64,000 bases of DNA, taken from contig CAZBAF010000005.1 of assembly GCA_964490245.1 (NCBI GenBank), positions 3,216 to 67,215 of the forward strand, given 5' to 3'. Below, piece after piece: positions 1 through 42,419 of the stretch. Within the stretch, counting starts at the first letter, position 1. The number at the start of each line of letters is the position of its first letter. A model generated the notes under the pieces. It saw only the letters and a list, made by a program, of their open reading frames with translations. It did not search any database and was not told the origin of the DNA. The translations under genes were made by a program, and so were the position numbers. Origin of the DNA: an uncultured Candidatus Saccharibacteria bacterium (lineage in GTDB: Bacteria > Patescibacteriota > Saccharimonadia > Saccharimonadales > JACDBH01).

Positions 1-66
1 TATGTTTTTATCCGGACAGGTTCCCTCTCAGACCGTAACTTCAGGCCGGGCTTGCATGTACTATTT

Positions 67-80
67 TGGCTCCTCCCAGA
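67..80 (-). repeat. 14-nt copy of the tRNA-Phe 3' end
   Basis: tggctcctcccaga equals the T-stem/acceptor 3' end of the intact tRNA-Phe at 413-488. No other tRNA parts lie around it. Confidence 0.6.
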
Positions 81-238
81 ATACTCCTGCGCGCCGAGAA
101 ACTATTTTCTCGGGCTTAGGATATAGCCGTTTGGCCGGAAAACTGACCGGCCAAGCCGTTATTGAACCGCCGACAGGCAGCGGTTCAGGTTGGCAATAAC
201 GACCACGAAAAAACCCGCCACAGGGGCGGGTGCTTTCG

Positions 239-256
239 TGGTGGCTCCTCCCAGAC
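239..256 (-). repeat. 18-nt copy of the tRNA-Phe 3' end including CCA
   Basis: tggtggctcctcccagac is identical to 413-430. On the minus strand it is followed by a hairpin (cccgcc/ggcggg, 214-230) and a T-run, like the intact gene. Confidence 0.7.
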
Positions 257-380
257 AGCGGTCTTTGACCTTCTCCAGCCAAAAGGGTCGAAAGCAAGCT
301 TTCGCGTTCCTTTTGGCTTCCGCCGAACTGACCCGCCAATCGGCGGATCCCAGTTCGAGCCTGCAAAGATATCAGCCAAG
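257..380 (-). repeat. right-type structured tRNA-flank module (Phe locus)
   Basis: Read on the minus strand it has an anti-T-loop-like ggctcgaactggg, a ccgcc-gatt-ggcgg hairpin, a 9-bp gccaaaagg/ccttttggc stem, and ends gagaaggtc before the 3' fragment. The order of elements matches the module at 1597-1699. Confidence 0.45.
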
Positions 381-411
381 TAAAAACCCCACGCGCAGGT
401 GGGGGTTTTAC
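381..411 (-). terminator. rho-independent terminator after tRNA-Phe
   Basis: The minus strand reads aaaacccccac-ctgcgc-gtggggttttt directly after the CCA end. Confidence 0.7.
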
Positions 412-412
412 T

Positions 413-488
413 TGGTGGCTCCTCCCAGACTCGAACTGGGGACACAAGGCTCTTCAGGCCTCTGCTCTACCAACTGAGCTAAAGAGCC
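413..488 (-). tRNA. tRNA-Phe (anticodon GAA), CCA encoded
   Basis: The reverse complement ggctctttagctcagttggtagagcagaggcctgaagagccttgtgtccccagttcgagtctgggaggagccacca folds as a cloverleaf with anticodon loop CTGAAGA. Confidence 0.92.
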
Positions 489-620
489 GAATTTAATCGA
501 TCTATGAAGTTGATTGTAAATGCCCTCGTCGCGCTAAAGGCTCTAACGCTCGGTGTTAATAAATTGTAACACCTCGCTACCTTGTCAAGCCGTAAAGGCT
601 TGACCGGCGTCAGGCCATTA

Positions 621-644
621 CTCTACCAACTGAGCTAAAGAGCC
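621..644 (-). pseudogene. tRNA-Phe 5' fragment (acceptor 5' strand plus D-arm)
   Basis: ggctctttagctcagttggtagag is identical to the first 24 nt of the intact tRNA-Phe. It then diverges into 132 nt of hairpin-rich spacer. Confidence 0.7.
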
Positions 645-721
645 GCAAATTACGGATTAGCACGACGCCGCTTATTTTACTGCAGAACGGGGAATTTCTC
701 AAGGTGACTTTATGGGTACGG

Positions 722-1277: not shown

Positions 1278-1330
1278 GGGTTGTTAGCTCAGTTGGCCCT
1301 GGTCTCTCGTTTACACCGAGAGGGTCGGGG
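1278..1330 (+). pseudogene. tRNA-Val 5' part (positions 1 to the 5' strand of the T-stem), decayed D-arm
   Basis: The first 19 nt and a further 26 nt (tctcgtttacaccgagagggtcgggg, including the TAC anticodon loop) are identical to the intact tRNA-Val at 1477-1553. It is interrupted right after gtcgggg. Confidence 0.75.
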
Positions 1331-1452
1331 TGAGAACTGCCAGTGGCTCCGCTGAAGAGCGGATCGCAAGGGAATCTTCCGATGCAAGCTGTGCTTGCAA
1401 TCGCGAAGTTCCGGGCCCGCCGGAGGTGGGTCGAGTCCTGGACTCGAACCCC
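1331..1452 (+). repeat. left-type structured module V (122 nt)
   Basis: It starts tgagaactgccagtgg, contains tcgcaagg, a long hairpin at 1371-1412, and a terminal near-palindrome ggtcgagtcc-tg-gactcgaacc. It is collinear with 24143-24262. Confidence 0.6.
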
Positions 1453-1476: not shown

Positions 1477-1553
1477 GGGTTGTTAGCTCAGTTGGCTAGA
1501 GCATCTCGTTTACACCGAGAGGGTCGGGGGTTCGAGTCCCTCACAACCCACCA
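1477..1553 (+). tRNA. tRNA-Val (anticodon TAC), CCA encoded
   Basis: gggttgttagctcagttggctagagcatctcgtttacaccgagagggtcgggggttcgagtccctcacaacccacca forms a 77-nt cloverleaf. Confidence 0.92.
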
Positions 1554-1586: not shown

Positions 1587-1596
1587 ATGGTATGAT

Positions 1597-1699
1597 CCGG
1601 GGACTCGAACGGGAATGTCCAGTGGACATTCCCCGCCCTTGGCTTTTCGGCTGTGCTGAAAAGTTTCTGTAGCAAAAGTAAGTTTCTTTTGCGCAGGAA
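1597..1699 (+). repeat. right-type structured module V2 (103 nt)
   Basis: ggggactcgaac (complement of a T-loop), hairpin ggaatgtcc-agt-ggacattcc, hairpin cttttc-ggctgtgct-gaaaag, ending gcaggaag. Confidence 0.55.
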
Positions 1700-1723
1700 G
1701 GTCGAGTCCCTCACAACCCACCA
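1700..1723 (+). pseudogene. displaced tRNA-Val 3' part (T-loop to CCA)
   Basis: ggtcgagtccctcacaacccacca matches 1530-1553 of the intact gene at 23 of 24 positions. Confidence 0.75.
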
Positions 1724-7434: not shown

Positions 7435-7511
7435 GGGGCTGTAGCTCAGTTGGCTAGAGCGCTTGTATGGCATACAAGAGGTCTGGGGTTCGAGTCCCCA
7501 TAGCTCCACCA
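7435..7511 (+). tRNA. tRNA-Ala (anticodon GGC), CCA encoded
   Basis: ggggctgtagctcagttggctagagcgcttgtatggcatacaagaggtctggggttcgagtccccatagctccacca has a G3:U70 pair. It has no flanking partial copies. Confidence 0.9.
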
Positions 7512-22364: not shown

Positions 22365-23951
22365 CTATTTATTCTTCTCTTGGCGGTTGAGGCGGTAGTG
22401 GTAAGTGGGGTAGCGTGAGCCTAATGTAAATGGATTGATGTATACATTTACCCGCGGCATTACGGCAAGCATTTTTGCTTCTAGCTGTTTTGTCCACGCT
22501 TGCCGCTGGCCGCGGTTTTTTGGCAGCAAGTCTACCCGCAGCGGTTTCGAGAGGATTGCCATTATCGCCGAGACAGTCCATGCCTGAATACGCTCTGGTT
22601 TGTTGGTGCTATTGACTTCTATAACATTCCCGTGGGAATGCTTAACTGGTTGCTTGGTGAGAACCCGGCCGTTTTTGTCCACGAACACAAATTCTTGGTA
22701 ATGCCGGCTCTTGAGGAACACGTTCAATAGGCGGCTCTCCAGTTGTGCCGCCAGCTTTGGAAAGCCCTGGCGTCTTAAACCTTTGGCGATGTCGTATGTT
22801 TCTTTGGGCCAAGATACGAAGGATCCATGATAATCCCAGTGGCCAACAAGATCTGCGGCTTCCAATGAGCGGCTGCGGATACCTGCACGGGTAAGAAAGT
22901 TACTACTTAGTATGTGCTCCACAATTCCCGTAACATACAGCTTCTTGTCTTTTTGGGGCAGACCGTCAAAGAAACCAGTATCCAAGAGTGCGGCCGGGTT
23001 GGCGGTAGTGGTCTGGATAATGCGTAGCTTTCCGTCTGGTCCATAATCGGTACCGAGTGCAAAGTAATTAGCTTCGGGTTGCCAAAGCAATTCTATCGTC
23101 CGGTCACGGACTTTTTGCGCGGCGGCCTGGTAATCTTCTGCTTTTTCGGGGAACAATTTAGCTGCGGTTTGCAGGGCATCGTATGTCAGGCCCTGCACCT
23201 CGATTGATGCGATAGGTGCGTTGTGATTCACGGGCTGTTTATCGGCGTGGATGTAGAATTCGTCAGAATCTTTCCATACTTGATTGAGTATGCTGTGCGG
23301 GTTTTGGTGTTGGAACTCTAATAAGCCAGAACGGGATTCTGCAAGGCGGGAGAAAAGCCAATCTACCGAAGCTTGGGCGGCTTCGGCCATGGTGTAGCCC
23401 ATTCCGTCGTAGCGGATGACAAGGCTTTGCAAGATACGCTTACCGTATAAGTCTACATAACAGCCAAGTGTTCTTAGGAATTGCGGTGTGGCATCAATGG
23501 ATCCGTAGTATCTTAGCTCGTCGTCGGTGCCGCCCCATTTGTCGCTGAGCTCTTTGAATATTTTGCGAGAGGCGTCATTGATTGGCTTTTTATCTACCAA
23601 AGTAGTACGGTATTCGTGGATTATTTTTCCTGGTTCTTCCTCGTTATCTTTGCGGTTTTCGGCTCCTTGCAAACTGGCAAGCGTCATAAGGATATTGCGG
23701 GCCAGCCGCGGTTTGATCCGCATAAGATCCTCGGCAACTTCTAGCGAGTCGCGGCCAAAAACTGCTCCTTTGTACAAAATATCAGAGCTAGCATAGACGC
23801 CTAGACCGGACTTAGAAGTGACACTCCGAAGGGCAAGGGTAGGTATAACTAACGCATTCTCTGGCTGTGTTAAGCCGGCAATAATCGCTTTGACCATAAG
23901 GGCATTATACCTCTCTAAAGTTTTTGTAAAAGTTAAACGGGGCTCTACCAA
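22365..23951 (-). CDS. amylo-alpha-1,6-glucosidase / glycogen-debranching-type (alpha/alpha)6 hydrolase
   Basis: GKIIHEYR...YYGSIDATPQFL pattern. The start is either TTG at 23951 or ATG at 23897. Confidence 0.7.
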   Translation of the reverse strand: MVEPRLTFTKTLERYNALMVKAIIAGLTQPENALVIPTLALRSVTSKSGLGVYASSDILYKGAVFGRDSLEVAEDLMRIKPRLARNILMTLASLQGAENRKDNEEEPGKIIHEYRTTLVDKKPINDASRKIFKELSDKWGGTDDELRYYGSIDATPQFLRTLGCYVDLYGKRILQSLVIRYDGMGYTMAEAAQASVDWLFSRLAESRSGLLEFQHQNPHSILNQVWKDSDEFYIHADKQPVNHNAPIASIEVQGLTYDALQTAAKLFPEKAEDYQAAAQKVRDRTIELLWQPEANYFALGTDYGPDGKLRIIQTTTANPAALLDTGFFDGLPQKDKKLYVTGIVEHILSSNFLTRAGIRSRSLEAADLVGHWDYHGSFVSWPKETYDIAKGLRRQGFPKLAAQLESRLLNVFLKSRHYQEFVFVDKNGRVLTKQPVKHSHGNVIEVNSTNKPERIQAWTVSAIMAILSKPLRVDLLPKNRGQRQAWTKQLEAKMLAVMPRVNVYINPFTLGSRYPTYHYRLNRQEKNK

Positions 23952-23994
23952 GAAACGCCGTTATCTGTTAAAATAGGGCAGTTCCAAAAAATAC

Positions 23995-24142
23995 TGGGGA
24001 TTGGCCATTCGCTGGCTAGCGAAGGTAAGGCAACGGTGAGAACTGCCAGTGGCAGTTTGGAAACGAACCTTCTCTTGAGAACTTGTTTTCAAAGTTGAAG
24101 TTCGGGGGTCGCGGAACGTGACTCTAGGTCCCGTGATCGGGG
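23995..24142 (+). pseudogene. mosaic tRNA-Gln 5' part: three exact tRNA pieces separated by insertions in the D-loop and anticodon loop
   Basis: Pieces 23995-24007, 24024-24036 and 24127-24142 are identical to the intact tRNA-Gln. A 16-nt hairpin (24008-24023) replaces agt, and a 90-nt module (24037-24126) replaces gttct of the anticodon loop. Confidence 0.75.
24037..24126 (+). repeat. structured module I2 (90 nt) in the anticodon-loop position
   Basis: It starts tgagaactgccagtggcagtt and has a long hairpin at 24064-24104 and a small hairpin gtcgcg-gaa-cgtgac. It is a paralogue of 24143-24262. Confidence 0.6.
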
Positions 24143-24262
24143 AGAGACATGCCACTGGCATGTCGCAAGGACATCAACTCTTGAGAACTATGTTCTCAAA
24201 GATGTTGTGTCGGGGTCGCAGGATGTGACGGCGGAACGTCGGTCGAATCCGGGTTCGAACCC
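24143..24262 (+). repeat. left-type structured module I3 (120 nt) in the T-loop position
   Basis: agagacatgccactggcatgtcgcaagg, a long hairpin at 24171-24210, gtcgca-gga-tgtgac, and a terminal ggtcgaa-tccggg-ttcgaacc. It is collinear with 1331-1452. Confidence 0.6.
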
Positions 24263-24289
24263 TTTGTATGTTAAAATCAGAGTAATTAT

Positions 24290-24363
24290 TGGGGATTGGC
24301 CAAGTGGTAAGGCAACGGGTTCTGGTCCCGTGATCGGGGGTTCGAATCCCTCATCCCCAGCCA
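24290..24363 (+). tRNA. tRNA-Gln (anticodon CTG), CCA encoded
   Basis: tggggattggccaagtggtaaggcaacgggttctggtcccgtgatcgggggttcgaatccctcatccccagcca. Confidence 0.9.
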
Positions 24364-24381
24364 AGCATAAGCACTATGAAA
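24358..24381 (+). repeat. 24-bp direct repeat DR1 (tRNA-Gln 3' end plus flank)
   Basis: cagccaagcataagcactatgaaa is identical to 26625-26648. Both copies are followed by a gacttc/gaagtc-type hairpin. Confidence 0.85.
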
Positions 24382-24406
24382 GACTTCCATCAGAGAAGTC
24401 TTTTTG
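24381..24406 (+). terminator. terminator hairpin after tRNA-Gln
   Basis: agacttc-catcaga-gaagtct-tttt. Confidence 0.7.
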
Positions 24407-24423
24407 TTTGTTATGATAATCCT

Positions 24424-24903
24424 ATGTCTTATTCTCAAAAATATTGTTTAGTCTCATTTATTAACCCAATTGGTACTAATACCGAGTTTGATATGACTGA
24501 TTGGCCATTACACGTTACATTGGCTGATGTGTTTGCAATAGATCTTCGCAAAACCAAAATTGAAGCTAAGCTAGAAAAACTATTATCAAGCCATCATCCA
24601 ATTAAAACGCTTGCAGGTATTGAAGCTACTCTAGGAACCACGGAAGTAATCTTGTTAGATAAAACCAAGGAGCTTGATGCTCTACATTCTAGTACGGTTG
24701 ATCTACTTGAGGATAACGGTGCACAATTTAATACTCCGGAATTCACAAGAGGGGGATTTGTGCCTCATTGCACCATTCAGAAGGTGGAGAGGCTACTTAT
24801 GGGTGATGAAGTGATTATTAGAAACATAGCACTCGTTGATATGTTCCCTAATGAAAATTGGCAGCAAAGAAAGATCATTAACATATTCAGATTACAGGAT
24901 TAG
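24424..24903 (+). CDS. 2H phosphoesterase superfamily protein (LigT / 2'-5' RNA ligase-like)
   Basis: Two H-x-T-x motifs (LHVTL and PHCTI) lie about 85 aa apart. The start is moved to the ATG at 24424, past the terminator hairpin. The sequence is AT-rich. Confidence 0.65.
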   Translation: MSYSQKYCLVSFINPIGTNTEFDMTDWPLHVTLADVFAIDLRKTKIEAKLEKLLSSHHPIKTLAGIEATLGTTEVILLDKTKELDALHSSTVDLLEDNGAQFNTPEFTRGGFVPHCTIQKVERLLMGDEVIIRNIALVDMFPNENWQQRKIINIFRLQD

Positions 24904-41154: not shown

Positions 41155-41271
41155 AACACCCCCTAGTTTATGCTTATGGTTGAGCCCATTATCTGGCTTT
41201 GCTTTTGGTAAGTCAATGACGTTTGTGTTTTTACGTCCGCTTCGTTATAGTGAAAGTGCTTAACAACCTAA

Positions 41272-41384
41272 ATATCAAGAGTGCAGCGAGAGTCCTAGCT
41301 CTGTGACCTGCCAGCAACCTGCTTAATAAGGCGAAGCCGTAAGTAAGGTGCTTCATCTAGCCGCCTGTATGGGTGGAAAGATAT
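41272..41384 (+). promoter_or_regulatory. SAM riboswitch (SAM-I clan) upstream of metK
   Basis: aUAUCAAGAG...GAGAG...GCAACC...AAGGUGC...aaGAUAU, with P1 pairing auauc/gauau. The downstream hairpin tatcctttc/gaaaggata plus T-run (41394-41429) covers the RBS. Confidence 0.65.
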
Positions 41385-41429
41385 GTTTTCTCGTATCCTT
41401 TCAGCTATATAGGCAGAAAGGATATTTTT

Positions 41430-42419
41430 ATGTCAAAACCAATTTACAGAACTGCAGAGTCGGTAAGTCCAAGGCACCCGGACAAAATCTGCGATCAACT
41501 ATCGGATGCGATTTTGGACGCATACCTGGCAGAAGATCCTGATGCGCGTGTGGCTGTCGAGGCTGTCGGCGGACACGGCAAAGTATTTGTGACGGGTGAG
41601 GTGACTAGCATTGCACATCCGAACATAGAGCCCATCATCAAGCGCATCGCAGGCGAGAATATTGAAGCAGAAGTGCGGTTGGTCAGGCAGAGTCCGGAGA
41701 TTGCGCAGGGCGTTGACATAGGCGGCGCTGGCGACCAAGGCATAATGGTAGGCTATGCTACGGATGAGACTCCGGAACTTTTGCCGCTTGAAGTTGTGCT
41801 AAGTAGAAAACTCAACCAACACCTTTACAGTATCTGGCCGCATGACGGCAAAACGCAGGTAACGCTCAAGAATGGCATTATCCAATCGGCTGTTGCCAGC
41901 TTTCAGCACGCGTCAGGACGTGAGCTGAGGAAAGCGGTTGCCAGGTGGCTAGAGGAAAACGGGTATGACCCCGGCAACGTTGAAATACACGCCAACCCGG
42001 CGGGCGATTGGCAGCAGGGCGGGTTTGACGCTGATACTGGCCTGACTGGACGTAAACTGGTGGTTGATAATTATGGTCCCCGGGTCCCAATTGGGGGTGG
42101 CTGTTTCAGCGGCAAAGACCCGAGCAAAGTCGACCGTTCGGCAGCCTACATGGCGCGTAAGGTTGCGGTAGATTACTTGAAAAAGCATGACGCCAAAGAA
42201 GTCTTTGTATACCTTGCCTATGCCATCGGCTACGCCCAGCCGCTTGAGGCGACGGTCATTATTGACGGCAGGCACGAAGAAATCAAGGGCTATGATTTGA
42301 CGCCGCGCGGGATAATCCAGGCCCTGGAACTGAGGCGCCCGATTTACGAACAGACTGCCAGGTACGGGCATTTTGGGCACGCCGGGTTACCGTGGGAGGA
42401 TGCTATACTCAAAGCATGA
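41430..42419 (+). CDS. metK: S-adenosylmethionine synthetase (short, 329 aa)
   Basis: [22 protein letters not shown]...[12 protein letters not shown]...[19 protein letters not shown]. Confidence 0.9.

What the first reader, a model, noticed from the sequence alone, without database searches (positions are those of the whole stretch)
23995..24363. tRNA-Gln locus repeats the tRNA-Val architecture: three exact tRNA pieces interleaved with paralogous structured modules, then an intact tRNA-Gln
Upstream of the intact tRNA-Gln (24290-24363) are three segments identical to it: 13, 13 and 16 nt at 23995-24007, 24024-24036 and 24127-24142. They are separated by three insertions:
- a 16-nt hairpin replacing agt of the D-loop;
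- a 90-nt module (I2) replacing gttct of the anticodon loop;
- a 120-nt module (I3) starting right after the 5' T-stem strand ..gatcgggg.

I3 (120 nt plus a 27-nt spacer) parallels the Val left arm (122 nt plus a 24-nt spacer) in length, position and motif order. That order is (t/a)gaga, a CC-AGT/ACT-GG hairpin, tcgcaagg, a long hairpin, and a terminal ggtcga..tcgaacc hairpin with a bulged A. All three modules begin right after CGG(GG).

The stems differ by compensating changes:
- aactgcc/ggcagtt against gacatgcc/ggcatgtc against ggaatgtcc/ggacattcc;
- gtcgcg/cgtgac against gtcgca/tgtgac;
- the long hairpins at 1371-1412, 24064-24104 and 24171-24210.

This argues for a conserved RNA or DNA secondary structure rather than random decay.
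Basis: seen in the sequence. Interest (0 to 1): 0.85.

Follow-up and report, generated by a model that had tools for sequence, protein, structure and literature searches.

The report
Structured RNA module invading spare tRNA copies
Next to the working tRNA-Gln and tRNA-Val genes lie truncated spare copies of those genes whose loops carry an ~88-base, tightly folded module. The module recurs, with compensating base changes, beside tRNA genes of nearly every amino-acid type in about 85 Saccharibacteria genome assemblies, and it matched no Rfam family and no paper I found.

Summary
The three exact tRNA-Gln pieces and the 16, 90 and 120 nt insertions sit exactly where stated.

Two of the insertions (24035-24122, 24141-24229) and the tRNA-Val left arm (1329-1430) are copies of one ~88-nt module, which I call M. 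M has three hairpins, P1, P2 and P3, on a junction.

A pattern scan and a covariation model found more than 120 M copies in about 85 genome assemblies, almost all Saccharibacteria. In the alignment 96% of cells are paired, and 26 of 33 pairs show compensatory changes. Rfam 15 has no match.

M nearly always sits after a G-G inside a truncated tRNA copy that flanks an intact tRNA of the same identity:
- Type A: a 5' fragment with M lies upstream of the intact gene.
- Type B: a 3' fragment with M lies downstream of it.

M is not an intron of a working gene: only 5 of 112 copies give a tRNA when removed in silico.

Several features look like insertion. Position differs between orthologous loci. 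Copies are nested. Orientation is occasionally reversed. M is absent from 318 kb of related contigs.

Best reading (about 0.4): an intron-like, non-coding insertion element, folded as RNA, that survives only in redundant tRNA fragments. A host-useful RNA domain is a close rival. Mechanism and function are untested.

The parts
23966..23974 (+). TGTTAAAAT, an extended -10-like box upstream of the truncated tRNA-Gln copy. The same 9-mer recurs at 24269-24277 before the intact gene.
   Evidence: Read from the sequence. Not called by the consensus promoter scan. Promoter duplication is also seen in L095 and L098. Function is inferred.
23995..24007 (+). Truncated tRNA-Gln copy, positions 1-13 (acceptor 5' strand and D-stem 5' strand)
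   Evidence: Exact match to the intact tRNA
24008..24023 (+). 16-nt hairpin (TTCGCT GGCT AGCGAA) replacing AGT of the D-loop
   Evidence: Similar small hairpins replace the D-loop in truncated tRNA-Phe copies in L008 and L066.
24024..24036 (+). Truncated tRNA-Gln copy, positions 17-29
   Evidence: Exact match
24035..24122 (+). M copy I2, inserted in the anticodon loop at GG|GT|TC. It has a GGAAAC variant in place of GCAAGG.
   Evidence: Model hit of 81.4 bits, E = 1e-17. The orthologous truncated copy in L113 has an uninterrupted anticodon loop. L103 and L086 carry M at the same loop.
24127..24142 (+). Truncated tRNA-Gln copy, positions 35-50 (anticodon stem 3' strand, variable loop, T-stem 5' strand)
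   Evidence: Exact match
24141..24229 (+). M copy I3, inserted at the T-loop after G-G-G-G
   Evidence: Model hit of 92.9 bits, E = 2e-20. 76% identical to I2.
24230..24242 (+). GGCGGAACGTCGG, a partial P3-like repeat of the kind left 3' of the inner copy in nested M-in-M loci
   Evidence: Compared by eye with L009, L108, L111, L064, L078 and L100. Inferred.
24243..24262 (+). T-loop remainder TCGAATCC plus its reverse complement GTTCGAACCC, forming the terminal hairpin with a bulged A. This is the end of the truncated copy.
   Evidence: reverse complement of tRNA positions 60..49 at spacer positions 22-33.
24290..24363 (+). Intact tRNA-Gln(CTG) with encoded CCA
   Evidence: ARAGORN. Rfam tRNA, 61.7 bits.
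24378..24404 (+). Terminator-like hairpin after tRNA-Gln. The trailer AGCATAAGCACTAT is shared with other tRNA loci.
   Evidence: The same trailer follows tRNA-Gly(GCC) in L121.
1278..1330 (+). Truncated tRNA-Val copy, positions 1-52, with an altered D-arm
1329..1430 (+). M copy at the Val locus (left arm), with an extra 18-nt hairpin inside the P1 loop
   Evidence: Model hit of 81.2 bits
1431..1452 (+). T-loop remainder TCGAGTCC plus reverse complement GACTCGAACCCC (terminal hairpin). TGGACT-17-TACAAT (1439-1467) overlaps it.
1477..1553 (+). Intact tRNA-Val(TAC)
1591..1698 (+). Non-canonical right-hand module: a reverse-complement T-arm piece, a P1-like hairpin, CCGCCCTTGG, and two more hairpins
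   Evidence: Only the P1-like part scores with the model. The module is conserved, with compensating changes, in the orthologous L073 locus.
1699..1723 (+). Displaced tRNA-Val 3' fragment (T-loop remainder to CCA, one T missing), followed by its own hairpin and T-run

Best explanation
M is a previously undescribed, non-coding insertion element of about 88 nt that behaves like an intron in where it sits but is not spliced to make a tRNA.

Anatomy: a G|UGAGA lead-in; P1, a roughly 10-bp hairpin with an AGU-type loop; UCGCAAGG; P2, a roughly 17-bp hairpin with bulges; GGG; and P3, a 6-bp hairpin with a fixed G.U pair and a GAA or GGA loop.

It lands after a G-G, most often at the start of the T-loop (GG|GT|TCGA). 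It also lands at look-alike sites in the anticodon loop, the variable loop and the D-arm, and in its own CGGGGTCGC stretch. It replaces 2-3 nt at the site.

Hitting a single-copy tRNA gene would be lethal. M is therefore seen only in redundant, truncated tRNA duplicates beside the intact gene:
- Type A: 5' fragment + M + T-loop hairpin + promoter + intact tRNA.
- Type B: intact tRNA + terminator + reverse-complement piece + positions ~43-53 + M + positions 57-77 + terminator.

The Gln locus is a type A fragment hit twice (I3 at the T-loop, I2 at the anticodon loop) and also carrying a small D-loop hairpin.

Shown:
- the fold and its covariation;
- the association with tRNA fragments;
- the lack of complete exons;
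- differing positions in orthologous loci, and presence in some related loci but absence in others;
- nesting.

Inferred:
- that the fold acts as RNA transcribed with the tRNA (fixed G.U pair, co-orientation, duplicated -10 boxes);
- that spread is by copying into GG...TCGA-like sites, either by microhomology or gene conversion or by an unidentified enzyme acting in trans.
For: - **Fold:** 26 of 33 pairs show compensatory changes and 96.2% of cells are paired.
- **Family size and range:** 118 loci, mostly Saccharibacteria, from one capped scan, and 125 model hits there.
- **Link to tRNAs:** 84 of 154 tRNAs in those loci have M within 130 nt, covering 19 amino-acid identities, with a regular type A or type B layout.
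- **Not an intron:** removing M in silico gives a junction-spanning tRNA in only 5 of 112 copies, and those still have an intact copy next door.
- **Position varies between orthologous loci:**
  - Val: M sits at 53/54 in the window but at about 45/46 in L073 and L051, with LemA synteny.
  - Gln: I2 is absent from L113.
- **Nested copies:**
- **Reversed orientation:** M is antisense at tRNA-Phe in three species, with its fold intact.
- **Patchy distribution:** no M in 318 kb with about 95 tRNAs of LemA-linked relatives, including tRNA-Gly(GCC) and tRNA-Leu(TAA), which carry M elsewhere.
- **Empty versus filled site:** L155 and L156 are empty; L058 and L068 are filled.
- **No linked protein:** no recurrent protein gene lies nearby, and there are no mobile-element genes among the window ORFs tested.
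- **RNA strand:**
  - The G.U at the fourth P3 pair is kept even in copies found independently of the search pattern.
  - Orientation relative to the nearest tRNA is 82 same strand to 5 opposite.
Against: - There is no target-site duplication, no terminal inverted repeats, no identified transposase, reverse transcriptase or integrase, and junctions are sloppy. No known transposition chemistry fits.
- Copies within one genome are rarely each other's closest relatives (2 of 41), yet every copy keeps the fold. For an element sitting in dead gene fragments this is unexpected, unless each copy is useful or turnover from conserved master copies is fast.
- Elsewhere in the helices, G.U-type pairs (42) only modestly exceed A.C-type (31). 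RNA rather than single-stranded DNA is therefore not proven.
- The 5' fragments are often 100% identical to the intact tRNA over 50 nt. That needs gene conversion, recent origin or selection.
- No expression data exist.
Confidence: 0.4

Rival explanations
1. M is a host-useful structured RNA domain, for example a stable leader or trailer RNA acting on tRNA transcript processing or stability, or a protein-binding RNA. On this view the truncated tRNA pieces are merely its carriers, supplying promoter, closing helix and terminator. Its insertion-like behaviour reflects how new copies arise, not why they persist.
For: - Every copy keeps the fold through compensatory change, although copies within a genome are old and diverged.
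- The surrounding reverse-complement and forward flank helices decay freely (20% mismatches), so constraint is specific to M.
- M is co-oriented with tRNAs 82 to 5.
- The -10 boxes or promoters are duplicated before M-bearing fragments, and terminators follow type B units.
- M persists in very compact genomes across many genera.
- Single-stranded nucleotides are conserved (UGAGA, GCAA/GAAA, GGG).
- The flank retained on the short side ends at the T-stem or closing helix.
Against: - Individual copies are dispensable. The same tRNA has M in some species and not in others, and 318 kb of relatives have none.
- Positions differ in orthologous loci.
- Nested and antisense copies exist.
- No partner protein or target is identified.
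Confidence: 0.3
2. M works at the DNA level. It is the folded single-strand end of a miniature integrative or transposable element of about 190 nt, mobilised in trans. This element targets the T-loop of tRNA genes and brings a replacement tRNA part, as tRNA-targeting integrative elements do. Alternatively, M is an OMEGA-like guide scaffold whose 21-nt 3' flank (tRNA positions 57-77) acts as the guide.
For: - In type B, the intact tRNA is followed by a displaced 3' fragment. The terminator after the displaced fragment in L058 resembles the single terminator of the empty site in L155.
- L104 holds a perfect 194-nt tandem repeat of the unit.
- T-loop and anticodon-loop locations are the classical integrase sublocations (my knowledge of Williams 2002, not re-read here).
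- M is followed by exactly about 21 nt and then a terminator in type B.
- Insertion always follows G-G.
Against: - There is no integrase, transposase, TnpB or IscB gene near any copy.
- Rfam's IS605-orfB and HEARO models do not match.
- M sits inside the repeated core, which att sites do not show.
- Type A (5' fragments) has no counterpart among known integrases.
- A fixed G.T and GNRA-like loops fit RNA better.
- Reverse-complement pieces are degenerate.
Confidence: 0.15
3. M is a genuine tRNA intron, or the joint of a split tRNA. The interrupted copies would then be functional genes whose transcripts are cut and ligated, perhaps by the neighbouring 2H-family enzyme, or type A and type B halves would be trans-spliced.
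For: - M sits at D-loop, anticodon-loop and T-loop positions, as in the multi-intron tRNAs of Thermoproteales (my knowledge).
- The stems of the truncated Gln copy are 100% conserved.
- A gene of the 2'-5' RNA ligase superfamily lies directly downstream of tRNA-Gln.
- Both halves are present at Val, L116, L067 and L014.
Against: - 107 of 112 copies lack one exon.
- An intact tRNA of the same identity is always adjacent.
- Many fragments have disabling changes, for example the anticodon stem in L116 and the D-arm in window Val.
- Junctions lose 2-3 nt, so exact exon joining would not restore the T-loop.
- The 2H gene follows a different tRNA (tRNA-Gly(GCC)) in the related contig L121 (LemA 82% identical), so its adjacency to tRNA-Gln is not conserved.
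Confidence: 0.04
4. These are ordinary decaying pseudogenes or chance hairpins with no specific family.
For: Truncated tRNA fragments are common next to tRNA genes in bacteria (PMC9897764, title and abstract only).
Against: - Model hits of 70-107 bits in more than 120 places, and none in the non-Saccharibacteria chance matches.
- Covariation is far above the shuffled and slid controls.
Confidence: 0.01

Closest known systems
Mobile non-canonical tRNA introns and split or multi-intron tRNA genes of Thermoproteales and Nanoarchaeota (archaea)
   Same: - Related short structured insertions sit in D-, anticodon- and T-loops of tRNA genes, with up to three per gene.
- Sequence-related copies occur at different positions and in different tRNAs, implying transposition.
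- 5' and 3' halves can be separate.
   Different: - The archaeal introns sit in complete, essential genes. They are removed at bulge-helix-bulge motifs by a splicing endonuclease, and the exons are ligated.
- Here the host is bacterial, 107 of 112 copies lack an exon, an intact gene is always adjacent, and junctions are not exact.
- The comparison with the archaeal literature rests on my own knowledge and was not re-read.
[quoted passage not shown]
   Same: Same bacterial superphylum, also in tRNA genes, also overlooked by standard annotation, and mostly without homing endonuclease genes.
   Different: - Those are ribozymes found with Rfam's group I and II intron models, in the anticodon loop (position 35/36 and others) of otherwise complete genes, and shown to self-splice.
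- M is 88 nt, has no Rfam match at E up to 10, sits mainly at the T-loop and lies in truncated copies.
- That paper's text does not contain the terms T-loop, pseudogene or repeat.
tRNA-gene-targeting integrative elements and the tRNA gene fragments they leave (PMC9897764; T-loop attB as for phage Ms6, PMC1762012)
   Same: - An intact tRNA is followed by a displaced direct repeat of its 3' part, starting in the T-loop.
- Arrays of such fragments occur.
- The filled versus empty site comparison looks like an insertion that restores the gene.
   Different: - The 'element' is only about 190 nt and has no integrase.
- The structured module sits at the crossover point inside the repeat.
- Mirror-image 5' fragments (type A) exist.
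- Reverse-complement pieces accompany the repeats.
Structured intergenic repeats and miniature transposons (REP/BIME, BOX, Correia, IS200/IS605-derived palindrome-associated elements and their omega RNAs)
   Same: They are short, non-coding, hairpin-rich, multi-copy, modular and sometimes nested, and they depend on factors acting in trans.
   Different: - Those elements scatter in intergenic regions generally. Most have terminal inverted repeats, target-site duplications or defined cleavage tetranucleotides, and they decay quickly.
- M is confined to tRNA-derived sequence, has none of those end features, and keeps a three-hairpin fold by covariation across genera.

Membership tests
Any Rfam 15 family (including hammerhead, twister, twister-sister, pistol, hatchet, hairpin and HDV ribozymes; group I and II introns; T-box; IS605-orfB; HEARO; retron msr; YrlA) | Score at or near the family's gathering threshold with the covariance model | tested here: not met
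   - Whole window at gathering thresholds: only 4 tRNAs and a SAM riboswitch.
- 23900-24420 at E up to 10: apart from the intact tRNA, only four chance-level matches of 12-16 bits.
Group I intron in a tRNA gene | Ribozyme core detected by Rfam's group I intron model | tested here: not met
   M is 85-96 nt with three hairpins, and there is no Rfam group I hit.
Group I intron in a tRNA gene | Both exons complete, so that splicing yields a tRNA | tested here: not met
   In-silico removal gives a tRNA in 5 of 112 cases.
Archaeal-type (bulge-helix-bulge) tRNA intron or split tRNA | Complete exons, or complementary halves that together make the only copy of that tRNA | tested here: not met
   An intact gene of the same identity lies 40-100 nt away, and exons are truncated or mutated.
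Archaeal-type (bulge-helix-bulge) tRNA intron or split tRNA | Bulge-helix-bulge motif at both junctions and a splicing endonuclease (EndA) in the genome | not tested
   No whole genome was available and the motif was not modelled.
tRNA-targeting integrative element (tyrosine recombinase) | Intact tRNA plus a displaced direct repeat of its 3' segment flanking the element | tested here: met
   Type B layout in about 45 loci. Filled versus empty site comparison.
tRNA-targeting integrative element (tyrosine recombinase) | Integrase gene within or next to the element | tested here: not met
   - The unit is about 190 nt.
- No recurrent neighbouring protein family within 2.5 kb.
- Window neighbours are a glycosyltransferase, a 2H enzyme, an AAA ATPase and LemA.
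Miniature inverted-repeat transposable element or classical IS | Terminal inverted repeats and a target-site duplication | tested here: not met
   - Ends are GGTGAGA... and ...GTGAC/G, a weak direct rather than inverted similarity.
- 2-3 nt of target are lost, not duplicated.
IS200/IS605-type element or omega RNA (TnpB/IscB guide) | Sub-terminal hairpins, insertion 3' of a fixed tetra- or pentanucleotide, seamless junctions | tested here: inconclusive
   - Hairpins lie at both ends (P1, P3) and a G-G always precedes M.
- However, junctions are not seamless and the hairpin-to-end distances (5 and 0 nt) differ from those I recall for IS608 and ISDra2.
IS200/IS605-type element or omega RNA (TnpB/IscB guide) | A tnpA, tnpB or iscB gene in the genome whose presence tracks the RNA | not testable with these tools
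   Only 8-kb loci were held. None of the recurrent neighbouring ORFs is shared by more than 7 loci.
Structured non-coding RNA (generic: conserved fold supported by covariation) | Significant covariation in an alignment of many independent copies | tested here: met
   Caveat: parts of UCGCAAGG, GGG and P3 were fixed by the search pattern. P1, P2 and the GAGA lead-in were not.
Structured non-coding RNA (generic) | Evidence that it is transcribed | not testable with these tools
   Only indirect evidence: co-orientation with tRNAs, duplicated -10-like boxes and a fixed G.U pair.

The most novel reading that the evidence does not exclude
M is a catalytic or guide-type RNA of a new class. Two forms of this reading remain open:
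- A small self-cleaving or self-inserting ribozyme whose roughly 190-nt tRNA-linked units (perfect tandem repeat in L104) behave like retrozyme or viroid-like cassettes.
- A scaffold that presents the adjacent tRNA-derived 21-nt segment as a guide for an unidentified nuclease or recombinase that targets the T-loop region of tRNA genes.

Either would make it a new RNA-based mobility system specific to ultra-small Saccharibacteria.
Probability: 0.12. Interest if true: 0.95.

Novelty: new variant of a known kind. Interest (0 to 1): 0.78.

Why it matters
Saccharibacteria have genomes of about 1 Mb that shed almost everything dispensable. Yet many of them carry structured units of 100-400 nt around a large share of their tRNA genes.

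If M is mobile, it would be an unusual bacterial case of an intron-like element spreading through tRNA loops. The nearest analogy is the archaeal intron-transposition story. It would also give a concrete model for how tRNA genes become split, duplicated or moved between neighbourhoods.

If M is a working RNA, it is a new, widespread RNA family tied to tRNA biology in a phylum with medical relevance (the oral TM7 group) and very few known regulators.

In practical terms, these units confuse tRNA annotation and create repeats that break assemblies and drive rearrangements.

Tried and rejected
- **Rfam:** gathering thresholds on the whole window and E up to 10 on the locus gave nothing.
- **Viral contigs:** the 5' motif gave one chance hit (L119) with no model match.
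- **Window genome in the protein-position index:** not on record.
- **Literature:** five full-text searches found no description. The nearest paper concerns group I introns.
- **Spliced-intron idea:** rejected by in-silico removal.
- **Autonomous version:** I looked for M halves split by an ORF. Orphan halves turned out to be nested copies or a longer variant with a different 3' domain, in L057, L107 and L109.
- **Linked protein gene:** none recurrent.
- **Recent bursts within genomes:** only 2 of 41 copies have their nearest relative in the same genome. Sampling of 1-3 copies per genome limits this test.
- **RNA-strand bias in the flanking reverse-complement and forward helices:** weak (59 against 41, p = 0.09) with many plain mismatches, so the flanks look like decaying inverted duplications.
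- **Other ideas considered:**
  - A T-loop-motif reading of UGAGA is weakened, because GA covaries with UC.
  - Hammerhead or hairpin-ribozyme cores are absent.
  - A -35 role for the reverse-complement hairpin fails on spacing in most loci and fits only at Val.
Full report
**1. The observation.**
The sequence is as described. The intact tRNA-Gln(CTG) lies at 24290-24363. Upstream, 23995-24007, 24024-24036 and 24127-24142 are exact copies of its positions 1-13, 17-29 and 35-50, separated by insertions of 16, 90 and 120 nt.

The identical pieces are the stems of the cloverleaf, and each of the three loops carries an insertion. The 3' strand of the acceptor stem is missing, so this copy cannot make a tRNA.

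The Val locus has both sides:
- a 5' fragment (1278-1330);
- a left module (1331-1452);
- the intact tRNA-Val (1477-1553) with a terminator;
- a right module (about 1591-1698);
- a displaced 3' fragment (1699-1723) with a second terminator.

The tRNA-Phe locus on the minus strand (1-700) shows the same plan with other modules. tRNA-Ala at 7435 is plain.

**2. A family, not a local oddity.**
Rfam 15 has nothing here beyond the tRNAs.

One scan of species-representative genomes used a pattern taken from I3 and the Val left arm (TCGCAAGG, a gap, then the P3 consensus). All but 13 obvious chance matches in high-GC coding DNA share the whole module, including parts the pattern did not specify.

These loci come from about 85 assemblies labelled Saccharibacteria, Saccharimonadales, Saccharimonadia or Patescibacteria. 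A few are labelled otherwise, and I did not verify those labels.

An alignment of 109 distinct copies gives a consensus of three hairpins. Of the 33 pairs, 26 show compensatory changes.

| Measure | Observed | Control |
|---|---|---|
| Cells forming a standard pair | 96.2% | 72.2% (shuffled) |
| Cells with a change on both sides | 781 | 196 (shuffled) |
| Covariation score | 0.597 | 0.05-0.10 (partners slid 1-3 columns) |

A covariation model built from this alignment finds exactly three copies in the window: I3, I2 and the Val left arm, at 81-93 bits. It finds 125 copies in the fetched loci and none in the chance-match loci.

Caveat: UCGCAAGG, GGG and the centre of P3 were fixed by my search pattern. 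P1, P2 and the UGAGA lead-in were not. In addition, copies found only by the model keep the G.T at the fourth pair of P3 while the neighbouring pairs covary.

**3. Anatomy of the module (M).**
In order, M consists of:
- a G-G of the host sequence, then UGAGA;
- P1, with an AGU-type triloop;
- UCGCAAGG;
- P2, about 17 bp with small bulges and a conserved CU...G in its loop;
- GGG;
- P3, 6 bp with a GAA or GGA loop.

UCGCAAGG either extends P1, with GA pairing to UC (two double changes and four G.U cases support this). Or it forms a 2-bp mini-hairpin with a GNRA loop: the variants CCGCAAGG, UCGCAAGA, UGGAAACG and CGGAAACG keep both the closing pairs and a GNRA loop. I could not decide between these two.

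Other module forms exist:
- A longer variant keeps P1 and UCGCAAGG but has another 3' domain (L057, L107, L109).
- The Val right-hand module (CCGCCCTTGG type) is a third form. It is conserved, with compensating changes, between the window and L073.

**4. Where M sits.**
M is almost always within 40-100 nt of an intact tRNA on the same strand. In the M-bearing loci, 84 of 154 tRNAs have M within 130 nt, covering 19 amino-acid identities. Orientation is 82 same strand to 5 opposite.

Mapping the flanks onto the neighbouring tRNA shows two regular layouts.

*Type A (upstream of the intact gene):*
- tRNA positions 1 to about 53, then M, then positions 57 to about 64;
- a reverse complement of about 64-50, forming the terminal hairpin;
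- a -10-like box;
- the intact tRNA of the same identity.

*Type B (downstream of the intact gene):*
- the intact tRNA;
- a terminator whose stem includes ACCA and TGGT;
- a degenerate reverse complement of about 77-45;
- positions about 43-53, then M, then positions 57-77 including CCA;
- a second terminator.

Both types occur together at window Val, L116, L067 and L014. Type B units can be tandemly repeated, for example as a perfect 194-nt repeat in L104.

M also sits after position 23/24 (tRNA-Gly(GCC) in at least 9 assemblies), in anticodon loops (tRNA-Gln, tRNA-Pro) and in the variable loop (tRNA-Val in L073 and L051).

Promoter-like boxes are duplicated together with the 5' fragment in L095 and L098. 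The window has TGTTAAAAT at both 23966 and 24269.

**5. Not an intron of a working gene.**
Cutting M out in silico, with several junction repairs, yields a junction-spanning tRNA in only 5 of 112 copies, and those still have an intact copy beside them.

Many fragments carry disabling changes. The junction loses 2-3 nt, so exact joining would not restore the T-loop.

**6. Insertion-like behaviour.**
- **Common target.** The shared feature is G-G on the 5' side. The T-loop site is GG|GT|TCGA. The tRNA-Gln anticodon loop offers the same GGGTTC, and M's own CGGGGTCGC is a look-alike that receives nested copies.
- **Different positions in orthologous loci.**
  - Val loci anchored by LemA carry M at 53/54 in the window but at about 45/46 in L073 and L051.
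  - The orthologous truncated Gln copy in L113 lacks I2 and the D-loop hairpin.
- **Reversed orientation.** At tRNA-Phe in three species, M is inverted relative to the tRNA yet scores 94-102 bits.
- **Patchy distribution.**
  - Eighty metagenome loci anchored on LemA (59-88% identical to the window's) hold 318 kb and about 95 tRNAs and contain no M at all, by model or by regular expression.
  - These include tRNA-Gly(GCC) and tRNA-Leu(TAA), which carry M in other genomes.
- **Empty versus filled site.**
  - Empty (L155, L156): tRNA-Leu(TAA), terminator, LemA.
  - Filled (L058, L068): tRNA-Leu, terminator 1, reverse-complement piece, positions 43-53, M, positions 57-77, terminator 2, LemA.
  - Terminator 2 of L058 resembles the single terminator of L155. 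This fits either an insertion that restored the gene or an old duplication. Terminator 1 also resembles terminator 2, so I cannot separate the two.
- **No linked protein.** No protein family recurs near M. The window neighbours tested are housekeeping genes.

**7. What is and is not under constraint.**
M keeps its fold everywhere. The reverse-complement and forward helices around it show 20% mismatches, most of them incompatible with pairing. They have only a weak excess of G.U-type over A.C-type changes (59 against 41, p = 0.09). The flanks therefore look like decaying fold-back duplications of DNA, whereas M is selected.

Within M, G.U-type pairs (42) only modestly exceed A.C-type (31), apart from the invariant G.U in P3.

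Copies in one genome are seldom each other's nearest relatives (2 of 41). Module subtypes are shared between genomes and between different tRNAs, and the same site carries different subtypes in different species. With only 1-3 copies sampled per genome, this does not exclude young copies. It does show that many copies are old yet still folded.

**8. Interpretation.**
The data fit an intron-like, non-coding insertion element whose fold matters, most likely as RNA read from the tRNA strand. It is tolerated only in spare, truncated tRNA duplicates.

How it moves is unknown. Possibilities are copying by microhomology at GG and TCGA, an enzyme acting in trans, or reverse splicing. How the duplicates arise is also unknown. 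Fold-back template switching at the terminator and T-arm palindromes would give the observed forward-reverse-forward pattern.

The main rival is that M is useful to the cell and that the fragments are its carriers. Persistent per-copy constraint in very compact genomes argues for that view. Dispensability and positional variation argue against it.

A DNA-level miniature integrative element, or a guide scaffold, remains possible but has no protein partner in sight. A true spliced intron is largely excluded.

**9. Relation to known systems.**
The closest analogies are:
- the transposing non-canonical tRNA introns and split tRNAs of some archaea (my knowledge);
- group I introns in Patescibacteria tRNAs (PMC13011429);
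- tRNA fragments left by integrative elements (PMC9897764, PMC1762012);
- structured miniature repeats.

M fails a defining test for each (see the membership table). I found no description in Rfam 15 or in five full-text searches. A paper outside the searchable library cannot be excluded.

**10. Limits.**
- There is no expression data and no complete genome of the window's organism.
- Taxon labels of MAG contigs are unverified.
- The Saccharibacteria assignment of the window rests on its similarity to those MAG loci.

Noticed in passing
window 1-700 (minus strand): The tRNA-Phe locus has the same plan with other modules: a 5' fragment (about 642-608), the intact tRNA-Phe (488-413), and then two successive units of reverse-complement piece + structured module + ...TCTGGGAGGAGCCA 3' fragment. 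The M model does not detect these modules, although their apical hairpins resemble P2 of M.
   Followed up: partly
window 24364-24377; L121 (downstream of tRNA-Gly GCC); also L043 and L118: The trailer AGCATAAGCAC(T) follows the CCA of different tRNAs. In L121 (LemA 82% identical to the window's), the orthologue of the 2H gene follows tRNA-Gly(GCC) instead of tRNA-Gln. tRNA genes therefore seem to be exchanged between otherwise conserved neighbourhoods.
   Followed up: partly
window 24376-24903 (+): The ORF directly downstream of tRNA-Gln matches the 2'-5' RNA ligase (2H phosphoesterase) superfamily (E = 5e-10). The adjacency to an interrupted tRNA copy is suggestive, but it is not conserved in relatives.
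   Followed up: partly
window 41269-41387 (+): SAM riboswitch (S-box), 54.7 bits, upstream of the ORF at 41373-42419.
   Followed up: no
L057:2633, L107:7595 (minus), L109:1020: A longer variant keeps UGAGA, P1 and UCGCAAGG but continues with a different conserved 3' domain (CCGGAGCC..GGATGACGAA..GTCAC..TGAGGCGGG..). It is also inserted in tRNA-like fragments.
   Followed up: no
L014:1372-2993: An array of five M or M-like copies surrounds one tRNA-Leu(TAG) in a Saccharimonas MAG. Several 3' fragments each have their own terminator.
   Followed up: partly
L174:2135-2441: An M-free relative has a type B-like unit with an unrelated insertion of about 120 nt between GGGGTTCGATC and ACCCCCACCA, downstream of tRNA-Leu(TAA). 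The habit of displacing 3' fragments is therefore wider than the M family.
   Followed up: no
L098:3200-3330: The second tRNA-Leu copy, downstream of the M-bearing fragment, is itself not called as a tRNA. It continues after the anticodon region into unrelated structured sequence, possibly a group I intron of the kind reported for Patescibacteria.
   Followed up: no
L005, L042 (labelled Parcubacteria), L006 (labelled Calothrix), L072 (labelled Burkholderiaceae, 150-kb contig): Canonical M copies occur in MAGs that are not labelled Saccharibacteria. These may be binning or labelling errors, or a wider host range.
   Followed up: no
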